This document shows, piece by piece, positions 9,001 through 12,000 of a DNA stretch of 17,566 nt (the first letter of the stretch is position 1; every line of letters begins with the position of its first letter). A program made the position numbers. This stretch comes from a virus (taxonomy: Duplodnaviria > Heunggongvirae > Uroviricota > Caudoviricetes), in the IMG/VR virus record IMGVR_UViG_2671181056_000012, positions 1 through 17,566 of that record, one strand, 5' to 3'.

Positions 9001-12000
9001 CCCAATTCAACCAACACAGGAAGAACATCAACAGTAAACTCAAGTTGGTAGTGAGCATTCATGCGGCAGAAAGACAGAGAAGAGTCATTAGCAACATACC
9101 CACACGGCTTGTTATTTTCATCGTAGACGCGCTCAATGTAGCCAGCAGTACGCAAGGCCGTTAGTGCTTCTTTAACCTTCGTAGCGCCCTTTTTAGCGCC
9201 TAACAGACGGGTCATTGAATGGCTATCTACGGATTTGCGAACATGAAGTTCAATCAGCTTTTTATTTTCGCGAGTTTTCTTTAATGCCAGTTCGATCCAG
9301 TCGGTTTCTTCAAAGTCTGCATACGGGTTAACAGCTAAACGTTCCTGACGCAGTTTTTCATTTTCTTCTTTCAGTCGTTTCCATTCCTGAATAACGATCA
9401 TTCGACGCTTAACATCGTAACCAGTGACAAGAGTCAGCGTCATTTCTTCGTCTAAGTGATATACTGGTTCTTTAACAGCATATCCTAAGTTATTGATTCT
9501 CTCGACAAATTCAGTTTTGAGCTGATCGATAATACCTAAAGATTCGTACATTTCGCGAATATCGCGCATTACATTGCTGTGCTTCTTATCGGTAAATTCA
9601 GCGATCTGACGAGAAGACATGGTCAGCGGTTTGGTGTTATCAACAACCAGAGACACGGAAGCAGTTTTAGCAGTATTCATAACGGTAACAGTATTCATAG
9701 TAAGATTCCCCTTAATTAACGGTTTTGCGATTTAATCCTCCGTGTTCCGGCAGCATCACCGGAACATTTTTATTTATGATAGAAATTTATTACCAATCGA
9801 TTTCTACTTGGTCTTCTTCATAATAAGGAATCGCATATTCATAACGCCAGTTTTCGATGATTTCACGTTCTTCATTAGTAAGAAGGTGATTGCTAACTGG
9901 AGTCGCATTGTGATTACCAGCTTCGAATTGCTCGCGAACTTCCAGCATTGCATGAATACCAGTTAAGGACATCAGATCAAACGGAACATGCATACTACGG
10001 GAGATAGTTTCACGGGATACGCCCCAATCATTTTCTACATGGCTAGGGCTTACAGAAACGGTTTTGCCGGAGATTTTAACAGTCCAGTCATACAGGGATT
10101 TAGTGATGGTAAATTCTTTCATGTTACATCCTCTTTACAAATCTAGGTCAAATAGGTTCAAAGTTGTCAAGTGCGATAATCATAAAAAAGTCAGAAAATT
10201 TTGTCAACACACCTTGACAAGACGCCAAAGTGTTGACCTAACTTACAGCATATCTAAGCCTTCATCGTAACCGTAGAAGCCATTCTGAGAAGAGAAACAG
10301 ATTGGTGTGTAGTCGTCGTCATCTTCGTCTTGTTCATCGTGTTCTGGGGCTTCCTGAGCGGGTTGTTTACCATAATCAGCCATAATCTGGTCAAGATCGG
10401 CGATCCCATAGTAAGAGCCTAAATCAACGTCATATTCACGAACATCAAACGGCAGGTCATCACGAACAATAATTGCCGGAATGTTGTTGTATTGTTCACG
10501 ACCTTCATCAGTAAAGCAGTCTACGATCACCGTAGGGCGACCATTACGTTTAAGAGCATAGAAAGCAGTTGAGAAATTGGAGTCTTCGGAATGACGAATG
10601 ATGTTATAACCACGATTAGCGAAAACATGCATCATAGCCAGATTATCATCATGGTTCAGACCCAGAAGAATGAAAGGAGTTTTAGTATTGATCATAGTGG
10701 AAATCCTCTAAAAGAAAGTGAATCAAACAAAGTACACTATTATTTATAACGAGAAATTTTTGTCTAATTTGAAAGGAATTGGTATTCAGTCGGCTTCGCC
10801 TCCTTCATAGATTTTGATTAAATCATCATCAAAACGAAGAAGTATCTTTAGAATATAAGAATCTTTCTTTTGGAGAAATTATAATCAGGAAGCAATTTAG
10901 CAACCGAAGGTTGCAATCCCGAAGGGATACCAATACCTTTCATGATCATTAAAGTGATCTAGAATCATCTAGTAACCAGTTAACTACTATTATCTTCAAA
11001 GTGATTATTACTATCTTTCTAGAATCAGTTAGTAACTAGTTTAAAATCCCTTTCAAGAAAATCCTTTCAGAAGTGATTCTCGATGCCACGCAGTGGCGTC
11101 GCAGACGTTTGAGAGTGAGCGAAGCGAGCGAGCAAACTAGTTAATTCCTTCTAAGACCATCTAGTATCATCTAGTTTAAATTAGTGTTACTAGAAGTAAT
11201 TGGTTAGCGCTTCGCGCAGTCGGGCTACGCCCTCCTAATATCTTTTTGGTTATTTGTTGTTTTTAGTTTTACACATGAGCGTAGCGAATGTGTTATATAA
11301 TATCTATGCACGCCCGATCCCCCGTTTTTGCCCCTCGCTAAGTTAATGTTTTATAAAGAGTTTTTCTCACCAATCCTTTTCGGGGGCAAATTTCAGGGGC
11401 AAAAATTAGATTTTCAGGGGCAATTATTGGCATTTCAGGGGCAAAAATGAGGGGCAAAATCACTGTTTCCCAGAATTTCAGGGGCAAAAATAGTAGGTTT
11501 CAGGGGCAAAAATGGGATAGTGAAATCTAGGGGATTTTGGTTCAGGGGCAAAATTCAGGGGCAATTTTCATAGTGTAGTGCTAGTGTAGGTTTGAAAGTC
11601 CTTTCTTGACACTATGTAGGTTTGGTGCTATACTTGACAATTCGAGAAAAAATGTGGTATAATATTTGTATTGAAAGTGAAAATTTACCGATTTTCCTTC
11701 CTATTGTTATCACCGTGTTAAATTGTTATATGTTTGTGAAGATTTGGATCTGAGAGAAAATCTTGTAACAAATCTTTACAATTCATAGCTCAATTAATGC
11801 TCACCGCTTTAGCAAAAAGTGCTATGCCTTTTTCTAAATTGATTGAATATACATCAATTTGGTTAATTCGTGCTCTCCGCTTTAGCAATTCGTGCTGCGG
11901 TTTAACACATTTAACACTTCTGATAACATCTGAATAACATTTTAACATATCTCTGTTATAAATACATATATAAGAGATAAATGTGAGGGGTTGAAAAATA

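What the first reader, a model, noticed from the sequence alone, without database searches (positions are those of the whole stretch)
9744..9771. Orphan plus-strand terminator at the Rha 5' end, possibly for an antisense RNA
A perfect 7-bp stem (GTTCCGG/CCGGAAC) followed by TTTTTATTTAT is a strong intrinsic terminator in the plus orientation, but no plus-strand gene ends here; it lies just upstream of the minus-strand Rha start. One explanation is an antisense RNA across the Rha ribosome-binding site, as phage P22 sar RNA does for its antirepressor. I could not find a convincing plus promoter, so it may instead be a 5' stabilising hairpin of the Rha mRNA.
Basis: inference. Interest (0 to 1): 0.4.

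Follow-up and report, generated by a model that had tools for sequence, protein, structure and literature searches.

The report
Hairpin in an antirepressor-like gene's leader
The hairpin is real and conserved, but related E. coli prophages suggest it is an ordinary stem-loop in the Rha messenger RNA, between two genes of one operon, rather than a stop signal for an antisense RNA.

Summary
At 9742-9767 (+) a 9-bp stem (7-bp perfect core GTTCCGG/CCGGAAC) is followed by TTTTTATTTAT, and it folds better than shuffled sequence.

The hairpin sits in a 91-nt spacer inside a minus-strand operon: strong promoter 10207-10179, orf110, hairpin, rha, terminator 8865-8847. The window is an uncharacterised ~35-kb E. 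coli prophage inserted in ycdX.

All 78 protein-anchored related loci carry a hairpin at this spot, behind three different upstream genes, so it belongs to the rha cassette. Two interchangeable hairpin types exist.
- Type 2 (15 of 78 loci) folds only in the rha-sense RNA: -21.1 kcal/mol (z -4.3) against -9.8 (z -1.3) on the other strand. It contains two G.U pairs and is not called as a plus-strand terminator.
- Type 1 gains two wobble pairs only in the sense strand. In 8 of 12 variants these close a GNRA tetraloop.

No conserved plus-strand promoter exists, and there is no Rfam match.

Best reading (about 0.45): a structural stem-loop of the rha mRNA acting in processing or stability. A sar-like antisense RNA keeps about 0.13. 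Ordinary; low interest.

The parts
9742..9767 (-). Conserved stem-loop, read as part of the rha-sense RNA. Core arms are 9744-9750 and 9759-9765. In sense it reads AUGUUCCGG-UGAUGCUG-CCGGAACAC.
   Evidence: Present in 78 of 78 protein-anchored related loci. The 14 stem columns are invariant while 5 of 8 loop columns vary. Wobble pairs form only in the sense strand.
9768..9789 (-). AU-rich single-stranded tract 5' of the hairpin in the mRNA (UAAAUUUCUAUCAUAAAUAAAAA). On the + strand it supplies the T-run that makes the hairpin look like a terminator.
   Evidence: ATAAATAAAA(A/T)TG is nearly invariant in 35 distinct spacers. Most relatives carry an AA|AUU match to the RNase E RN|WUU motif here. 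That motif is low in information (PMC5927463).
9699..9741 (-). Rest of the rha 5' leader. It holds an SD-like GGAGGA (9741..9736) right after the hairpin, a variable spacer with indels, and the rha Shine-Dalgarno AAGGGGAA (9713..9706).
   Evidence: The hairpin ends 30 nt upstream of the SD, so it does not sequester the ribosome-binding site (read directly from the sequence).
8874..9698 (-). rha, 274 aa: Phage_pRha domain, anti-repressor-like.
   Evidence: Pfam PF09669, E 3.6e-12. PHROG anti-repressor families, E 3.6e-17 and 1.4e-16. Annotated 'Rha family transcriptional regulator' in RefSeq E. coli genomes.
9790..10122 (-). orf110, the first gene of the operon, function unknown. In relatives it is replaced by a 48-aa gene or a third gene.
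10179..10207 (-). Operon promoter TTGACA-17-TATGAT (11/12), flanked by operator-like TTGACAA/TTGTCAA inverted repeats.
   Evidence: The same promoter is found in L001 and L002.
8847..8865 (-). Intrinsic terminator of the operon: GCCCCTGAATTTCAGGGGC followed by T6.
8756..8773 (+). Terminator of the convergent + strand genes (7876-8740). It already stops + strand transcription about 1 kb before the hairpin.

Best explanation
The selected feature is an RNA stem-loop in the rha-sense (minus-strand) transcript. It lies in the intercistronic spacer of a two-gene operon: promoter 10207-10179, orf110, hairpin, rha, terminator 8865-8847.

It acts as a generic structural element of the mRNA rather than as a sequence-specific site. 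The most likely role is as a decay and processing barrier. An AU-rich single-stranded tract lies immediately 5' of the stem. Endonucleolytic (RNase E-type) cleavage there would leave an rha mRNA that begins with a stable hairpin and is protected from 5'-end-dependent decay, as in papBA. The same hairpin could block 3'-to-5' exonucleases for the upstream cistron, as in malE-malF.

It does not mask the rha ribosome-binding site, which lies 30 nt downstream. The plus-strand 'terminator' appearance is a by-product of a hairpin preceded by an A-rich tract.

What is shown: the hairpin's position inside an operon, its conservation, its linkage to rha, the interchangeability of two hairpin types, and the strand asymmetry of pairing. 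What is inferred: that it acts on mRNA stability or processing, and the RNase E step.
For: 1. Operon context. A consensus-like minus promoter lies upstream of orf110, a strong minus terminator follows rha, and nothing terminator-like lies between them on the minus strand.
2. Conservation and linkage. All 78 protein-anchored loci carry a hairpin here, behind three different upstream genes. In many E. coli genomes homology with the window stops at about 9792, the end of the spacer.
3. Stem versus surroundings. In 23 distinct type 1 leaders, 0 of 14 stem columns vary. Outside the stem 51% of columns vary, including 5 of 8 loop columns (hypergeometric P about 2e-4).
4. Hairpin replaced by hairpin. 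Type 2 (UCCGCGCGCC-GUU-GGCGUGUGGA) sits at the same position in 15 of 78 loci and is combined freely with different upstream genes, leaders and rha alleles. This argues for structure rather than sequence.
5. Strand asymmetry. Type 2 folds at -21.1 kcal/mol (z -4.3; 0 of 200 shuffles as good) in sense, against -9.8 (z -1.3; 27 of 200) in antisense. The reason is two G.U pairs that become A.C mismatches on the other strand. All 15 distinct hairpin segments fold better in sense, by 3.2 kcal/mol on average.
6. Type 1 loop-closing pairs. U.G or C-G forms in 12 of 12 variants and G.U or A-U in 10 of 12 in sense, against 1 of 12 each in antisense. In 8 of 12 distinct variants these pairs close a GNRA tetraloop (GUGA or GAGA).
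7. Comparison with the phage's own terminators. Those listed at or near gene ends have loops of 3-6 nt. The + strand version of this hairpin has an 8-nt loop.
8. A second intercistronic hairpin lies between the portal and capsid genes of the same phage, at 3768-3786.
9. Known mechanism. E. coli operons are reshaped by RNase E cleavage at RN|WUU sites just upstream of protective stem-loops, and by 3' intergenic hairpins (PMC5927463).
Against: - There is no expression data. No double-sided compensatory change occurs in the 7-bp core, so covariation is uninformative.
- For type 1, the window's type, the two strands differ by only 1-2 kcal/mol. The antisense fold has the better z-score in the common variant. 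In the window itself the values are -14.1 against -13.7.
- The strand argument therefore rests mainly on type 2, which could be a derived allele that lost an antisense function.
- All relatives are closely related E. coli prophages, so conservation partly reflects recency and recombination.
- The RNase E motif is low in information and is only partly matched in the window (AA|AUG).
- The invariant A-rich tract and the SD-like GGAGGA after the stem are not explained by a pure stability role.
Confidence: 0.45

Rival explanations
1. Plus-strand intrinsic terminator that ends a short cis-antisense RNA covering the rha ribosome-binding site. This would be a P22 sar-like control of an antirepressor.
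For: In the window the + strand signal is a good terminator by pattern: 9-bp stem and T5-A-T3. It is also called in a type 1 relative. Rha matches anti-repressor PHROGs and sits second in a small operon with a strong, operator-flanked promoter, as ant does in P22 immI (PMC2629481). A weak promoter-like site, TTAACA-17-AACAGT, lies at the rha start codon in 15 of 42 relatives (AATAGT in one more). It would give an RNA of roughly 80 nt.
Against: No + strand promoter at 9/12 or better lies anywhere in rha in the window, L001 or L002. The best candidate has a 3 of 6 match in its -10 hexamer, is absent from most relatives, and is missing from the window allele, where a 3-nt gap leaves a 14-nt spacer. 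The candidate TGaTATACT at 9458-9466 exists only in one rha allele, 9 of 42. Type 2 loci lose the terminator: the antisense fold is no better than shuffles and the scan makes no call. Most type 1 relatives have a 7-bp stem with two A's before the T-run. There is no Rfam match on either strand.
Confidence: 0.13
2. Plus-strand terminator acting as an insulator. It would have no dedicated RNA product and would stop spurious or read-through antisense transcription inside AT-rich rha from running into the operon promoter.
For: The pattern match on the + strand. The prophage has about 40% GC. Weak promoter-like sites on the antisense strand of rha exist at varying positions in all relatives, with scores of 7-11.
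Against: The convergent + strand genes have their own strong terminator at 8756-8773, about 1 kb upstream. Type 2 loci lack the property. Linkage of a specific hairpin to rha and the sense-only wobble pairs are not expected for this role.
Confidence: 0.12
3. DNA-level element. The inverted repeat TGTTCCGG-N8-CCGGAACA would be an operator overlapping the start site of a weak internal rha promoter formed by the conserved TATAAATAAAAT tract.
For: Borderline sense promoter-like sites end 1-2 bp before the stem in relatives: TTGGTA-18-TAAAAT in L001 and ATGAGA-17-TAAAAT in L002. The tract resembles the region of the predicted promoter of the 150-aa gene at 10739-10766. The A-rich tract is nearly invariant.
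Against: The promoter matches are 9/12, no more frequent than in shuffles, and the window's own copy fails (TAAAAA). The half-site centres are about 15 bp apart, which I judge atypical for a dimeric repressor. Type 2 is an imperfect DNA palindrome whose mismatches are exactly G.U pairs in the sense RNA. There is only one copy per prophage.
Confidence: 0.08
4. No selected function. The palindrome would be a passenger of the recombining rha cassette, for example a linker at a mosaic joint, and it merely resembles a terminator.
For: All carriers are closely related E. coli prophages. The region is highly mosaic. There is no covariation in the core stem.
Against: The stem columns are invariant amid a leader in which half the columns vary. 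An unrelated, very stable hairpin occupies the same position in type 2.
Confidence: 0.15

Closest known systems
Protective intercistronic or 5' stem-loops in polycistronic mRNAs (papBA-type 5' protection after RNase E cleavage; malE-malF 3' intergenic hairpin; Dar and Sorek 2018, PMC5927463)
   Same: A stable stem-loop between co-oriented genes of one operon, with an AU-rich single-stranded tract directly upstream. The structure is conserved among relatives, and pairing is specific to the mRNA strand.
   Different: No decay or processing data exist here. The RNase E motif match is weak in the window. The element is tied to a mobile gene cassette and exists as two swapped hairpin alleles.
P22 sar RNA (immI region: Pant-arc-ant), a cis-antisense RNA to the antirepressor ribosome-binding site (Liao et al. 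1987 and Wu et al. 1987, as cited in PMC2629481)
   Same: The target is an antirepressor-like gene lying second in a small, tightly controlled operon. A hairpin plus T-run on the opposite strand lies in the intercistronic spacer.
   Different: There is no credible or conserved antisense promoter. The terminator property is lost in a common allele. There is no sequence or Rfam similarity.
Lambda nut sites (boxA plus boxB hairpin with a GNRA-like loop, downstream of the first gene of an early operon)
   Same: A hairpin downstream of the first gene after a strong repressible promoter. GNRA tetraloops (GUGA, GAGA) occur in 8 of 12 type 1 variants in the sense strand.
   Different: No boxA is present. 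There is a single copy per prophage. The stem is longer (9-11 bp). The loop sequence is not conserved (AUGC in the window, a GUU triloop in type 2). No N-like protein has been identified.

Membership tests
Rho-independent terminator (+ strand) | G+C-rich stem-loop immediately followed by a U-run | tested here: met
   Window: 9 pairs, 5 G-C pairs, tail TTTTTATTTAT, -13.7 kcal/mol. The loop is 8 nt, longer than in this phage's terminators at or near gene ends (3-6 nt).
Rho-independent terminator (+ strand) | Lies at the end of a transcription unit on that strand (promoter and/or gene upstream) | tested here: not met
   No + promoter at 9/12 or better lies between 8461 and 9742. The + strand genes end at 8740 with their own terminator at 8756-8773. 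The + ORF 9619-9735 is not conserved in frame.
Rho-independent terminator (+ strand) | Terminator features kept in relatives | tested here: not met
   Type 1 relatives: 7-bp stem with tail AATTTTATTT, still called. Type 2 (15 of 78 loci): not called, and the antisense fold of -9.8 kcal/mol has z -1.3.
P22 sar-type cis-antisense RNA | Promoter on the opposite strand at or near the 5' end of the target gene | tested here: not met
   Only a weak TTAACA-17-AACAGT site in 15 of 42 relatives, absent from the window allele.
P22 sar-type cis-antisense RNA | Terminator of the antisense RNA in the intercistronic spacer upstream of the target | tested here: inconclusive
   Met by pattern in the window and in type 1 relatives; not met in type 2.
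P22 sar-type cis-antisense RNA | Target is an antirepressor under multi-layer control | tested here: inconclusive
   Rha matches PHROG anti-repressor families and Pfam Phage_pRha. Antirepressor activity itself was not tested. No Arc or Mnt homologue was recognised.
P22 sar-type cis-antisense RNA | A detectable short antisense transcript | not testable with these tools
   No transcriptome data are available for carrier strains.
Protective intercistronic / 5' mRNA stem-loop | Stable stem-loop inside a polycistronic transcript, with no terminator on the mRNA strand | tested here: met
   In sense the stem is followed by CGGAGGAUUAAAUC, with no U-run.
Protective intercistronic / 5' mRNA stem-loop | Structure conserved in relatives, with pairing specific to the mRNA strand | tested here: met
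   78 of 78 loci. The stem is invariant while the loop varies. Sense folds better than antisense in 15 of 15 segments. Wobble pairs. Type 2 folds. There is no double-sided covariation.
Protective intercistronic / 5' mRNA stem-loop | Endonuclease (RNase E RN|WUU) site in a single-stranded AU-rich segment just upstream | tested here: inconclusive
   AA|AUU lies directly before the stem in most relatives and AA|AUG in the window. The motif is low in information (PMC5927463).
Protective intercistronic / 5' mRNA stem-loop | Differential stability or abundance of the flanking cistrons that depends on the stem | not testable with these tools
   Needs rifampicin decay, RNA-seq or Northern data.
Lambda-type nut site | boxA motif upstream of a boxB hairpin, and two copies (nutL, nutR) | tested here: not met
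   No GCTCTT-like boxA is present in the 91-nt spacer. There is one copy per prophage.

The most novel reading that the evidence does not exclude
The hairpin would be a dedicated regulatory RNA signal that gates expression of an antirepressor-like Rha in an uncharacterised family of E. coli ycdX prophages. It could be the 3' end of a sar-like antisense RNA driven by an atypical promoter. Or it could be a sense-strand hairpin recognised by a phage or host factor (nut-like or translational operator). In the second case the two hairpin alleles would be alternative specificities.
Probability: 0.12. Interest if true: 0.45.

Novelty: new member of a known kind. Interest (0 to 1): 0.17.

Why it matters
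If the best reading is right, this is a routine example of an intercistronic mRNA hairpin that tunes the output of the second gene of a phage operon. It also shows that a hairpin preceded by an A-rich tract will be called a terminator on the wrong strand.

It would matter more only if the element proved to be a specific switch for an antirepressor, and so for prophage induction, in a prophage family with almost no annotated genes. The two naturally swapped hairpin alleles would then be a ready-made experiment.

Tried and rejected
1. DNA similarity to known phages (INPHARED, near and distant modes): no match.
2. Rfam on the whole window and on 9550-9900 at E up to 10: nothing meaningful.
3. A genome-contig scan with an 18-mer from the A-tract and left arm was wasted on chance AT-rich matches and did not reach the host. 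The host was identified instead through the look-up of encoding contigs and the E. coli collection.
4. Searches for more distant relatives or a third hairpin type returned only the same family with types 1 and 2. These were a leader-pattern scan, a Rha profile scan, and three E. coli loci with truncated homology.
5. A second copy of the hairpin, as expected for a nutL/nutR pair: none.
6. The T4-late-promoter-like TATAAATA motif as a repeated signal: not enriched (9 matches against 4.6 expected; 7 of 200 shuffles reach 9).
7. The + strand ORF 9619-9735, a hydrophobic 38-aa peptide that could suggest a type I toxin. In relatives its C-terminal part is frame-shifted by leader indels, its length ranges from 32 to 72 aa, its hydrophobic stretch changes with an 18-nt duplication, and it is missing in several relatives. 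Rejected as a gene.
8. A leader peptide starting at the AUG in the hairpin loop: no SD, and length and frame are not conserved (read). Rejected.
9. RNAalifold on the whole leader: no further conserved structure.
10. An extended -10 candidate TGaTATACT at 9458-9466 on the + strand: confined to one rha allele.
11. Literature: no paper on a ycdX prophage. The primary sar papers are not held in the library.
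Full report
**Observation**

- The perfect arms are GTTCCGG (9744-9750) and CCGGAAC (9759-9765), around the 8-nt loop CAGCATCA.
- On the + strand the stem extends to 9 pairs (9742-9767) and is followed by TTTTT-A-TTT-A-T.
- The pattern scan lists it as a + strand terminator-like site. The window holds 27 such sites against 15.7 +/- 3.5 in shuffles.
- As RNA the + strand folds at -13.7 kcal/mol (z -3.7). The - strand folds at -14.1 kcal/mol (z -2.9).

The hairpin is real and better than chance. In the window alone it does not say which strand matters.

**Context**

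The window is a tailed-phage genome segment.
- It encodes a gpA-type large terminase, a lambda-family portal and a protease-capsid fusion.
- It has no DNA similarity to deposited phages.
- It is an E. coli prophage of about 35.3 kb inserted in ycdX. It carries a large serine recombinase and is mostly annotated 'hypothetical'.
- It is present in about 54-58 of 5,426 complete E. coli genomes.
- GC is about 0.37-0.44 in the prophage part and rises to 0.53 where host DNA begins.

The hairpin lies in a 91-nt spacer between two minus-strand genes.
- The genes are orf110 (10122..9790, no family match) and rha (9698..8874).
- Rha matches Pfam Phage_pRha at E 3.6e-12. Its best PHROG matches are anti-repressor families.
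- An 11/12 promoter (TTGACA-17-TATGAT, 10207..10179) flanked by operator-like inverted repeats precedes orf110.
- A strong minus-strand terminator (8865..8847) follows rha.
- The convergent + strand genes (7876-8740) have their own terminator at 8756-8773.

On the mRNA strand the stem is followed by CGGAGGAUUAAAUC, with no U-run. It is therefore an internal hairpin of a two-gene operon transcript, 30 nt upstream of the rha Shine-Dalgarno sequence.

**Relatives**

Loci were collected by protein similarity alone, independent of the hairpin.
- They were anchored on Rha, on orf110, on a Rha profile and on exact orf110 matches in assemblies. This gave 78 loci, many from the same contigs.
- Every one carries a hairpin at this position.
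- The block TTATAAATAAAA(T/A)TG-hairpin-(N)NGGAGGA follows three different upstream genes.
- In many E. coli genomes, homology to the window ends at about 9792, the end of the spacer.

The hairpin therefore travels with the rha cassette, not with the upstream gene. Downstream, the leader and the first codons are shared. The rest of Rha occurs in at least six allelic forms.

**Two hairpin types**

- Type 1 (63 of 78 loci, including the window) is GTTCCGG-N8-CCGGAAC, with six different loops.
- Type 2 (15 of 78 loci) is an unrelated G+C-rich hairpin at the same place: UCCGCGCGCC-GUU-GGCGUGUGGA in sense.
- Type 2 is combined freely with different upstream genes, leader variants and rha alleles.
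- Within 23 distinct type 1 leaders, none of the 14 stem columns varies. By contrast 5 of 8 loop columns and 32 of 55 downstream leader columns vary (hypergeometric P about 2e-4).
- There is no double-sided compensatory change, so classical covariation is silent.

A hairpin replaced by another hairpin, plus an invariant stem around a variable loop, argues that the structure is what is kept.

**Which strand**

- Type 2 contains two G.U pairs in the rha-sense RNA. These are A.C mismatches in the + strand RNA.
- In sense it folds at -21.1 kcal/mol (z -4.3; 0 of 200 shuffles as good). In antisense it folds at -9.8 kcal/mol (z -1.3; 27 of 200).
- The terminator scan does not call a site on the antisense strand of a type 2 locus (L002). 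It does call one in a type 1 locus (L001).
- In type 1, the first and last loop bases form U.G (11 of 12 distinct variants) or C-G (1 of 12). The next pair is G.U (9 of 12) or A-U (1 of 12). Both form in the sense strand only; on the + strand the same positions pair in 1 of 12.
- In 8 of 12 variants these pairs close a GNRA tetraloop (GUGA or GAGA).
- All 15 distinct hairpin segments fold better in sense, by 3.2 kcal/mol on average.

For type 1 the difference is only 1-2 kcal/mol. In the window's own variant the strands are practically equal, so the strand call rests on the comparative data and chiefly on type 2.

**Is there an antisense RNA?**

- The 9/12 promoter scan finds nothing on the + strand between 8461 and the hairpin in the window. 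It finds nothing on the antisense strand of rha in L001 or L002 either.
- A weight-matrix scan (my approximate sigma-70 matrix) of 42 distinct relatives finds only weak sites at changing positions.
- The most interesting is TTAACA-17-AACAGT at the rha start codon, which would give an RNA of roughly 80 nt. Its -10 hexamer matches 3 of 6. It occurs in 15 of 42 relatives.
- In the window's allele I read a 3-nt gap that shortens the spacer to 14.
- An extended -10 candidate (TGaTATACT, 9458-9466) exists only in one rha allele (9 of 42).
- Most type 1 relatives have a weaker terminator than the window: a 7-bp stem with AA before the T-run.
- Rfam has no match on either strand.
- The + ORF 9619-9735, which ends 7 nt before the hairpin, is not maintained in frame or length among relatives.

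The sar analogy is reasonable in outline. Rha is antirepressor-like, it is the second gene of a tightly controlled operon, and P22 ant is controlled by sar in such a setting (PMC2629481). Its defining parts are not found here.

**Mechanism proposed**

The best-supported reading is a generic structural stem-loop of the operon mRNA.
- An AU-rich single-stranded tract lies directly 5' of the stem. In most relatives it offers AA|AUU, a match to the RNase E RN|WUU motif; the window has AA|AUG.
- In E. coli operons, RNase E cleavage just upstream of a stable structure protects the downstream segment (papBA type). 3' intergenic hairpins protect the upstream cistron (malE-malF) (PMC5927463).
- Either or both could apply here, setting the ratio of orf110 to rha message.
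- The hairpin is too far from the ribosome-binding site to mask it.
- The same phage has another intercistronic hairpin between its portal and capsid genes (3768-3786).

All of this is inference from anatomy. The invariant A-rich tract and the SD-like GGAGGA immediately after the stem are not accounted for.

**Rivals**

- A sar-like antisense RNA: 0.13.
- A + strand insulator terminator: 0.12.
- An operator plus weak internal promoter: 0.08. The 9/12 sense promoter-like sites end 1-2 bp before the stem in L001 and L002 but are not above chance. Type 2 is an imperfect DNA palindrome whose mismatches are exactly the RNA wobble pairs.
- No selected function: 0.15.
- A nut-like site is disfavoured. 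There is no boxA, there is a single copy per prophage, and the loops are not conserved.

**Verdict**

- The antisense-terminator interpretation is not supported.
- It is an ordinary kind of element in an uncharacterised prophage: a new member of a known kind, of low interest.

Noticed in passing
window 11379-11564 (- strand), within the ORF-poor stretch 10750-11790; also 8857-8867: There are eight copies of TTGCCCCTGAA (one with a mismatch) in about 190 bp, against 0.3 expected. A ninth copy forms one arm of the rha terminator palindrome GCCCCTGAATTTCAGGGGC. This looks like an iteron array (origin, packaging or partition site).
   Followed up: partly
window 10140-10245: Operator-like repeats surround the 11/12 promoter of the orf110-rha operon. 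They are the inverted pair GTCAACAC / GTGTTGAC overlapping the -35, the near-palindrome CTTGTCAAG, and CACTTGACAA downstream of the -10. No repressor was identified.
   Followed up: no
window 3768-3786: A second intercistronic G+C-rich hairpin (TGGGGGCATTGCGCCCCCG) lies between the minus-strand portal and protease-capsid genes. It is also flagged as a + strand 'terminator' with a poor T-run.
   Followed up: no
window 9660-9698 and related loci: An 18-nt tandem duplication at the rha start (ACTATGAATACTGTTAC twice, giving MNTVTxMNTA) creates two in-frame AUGs. It is absent in L008, L010 and L196.
   Followed up: partly
window 8874-9620 and L001-L037: rha is strongly mosaic. The same leader and first ~30 codons are joined to at least six different alleles of the Rha-domain region and to different C-terminal parts.
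   Followed up: partly
window 9619-9735 (+): A 38-aa hydrophobic ORF antisense to the rha start ends 7 nt before the hairpin. In relatives its frame and length change with leader indels, and it is missing in several, so it is probably not a gene.
   Followed up: yes
whole window; L236 9510-44835: The element is an uncharacterised ~35-kb, ~40% GC E. coli prophage inserted in ycdX. It has a large serine recombinase, no DNA match in INPHARED, and almost no family matches for its non-structural genes. About 1% of complete E. coli genomes carry it.
   Followed up: partly
window 13983-14465 (-): A 160-aa ORF at the prophage end matches PHROG 'terminase small subunit' (E 7.7e-8). It lies about 6 kb from the large terminase gene (5883-7790), with the rha operon and the iteron region between them.
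   Followed up: no
window 7876-8740 (+): Two + strand genes (200 aa and 77 aa, no family match) are wedged between the rha operon and the terminase gene. They converge on rha, and each side has its own terminator.
   Followed up: no
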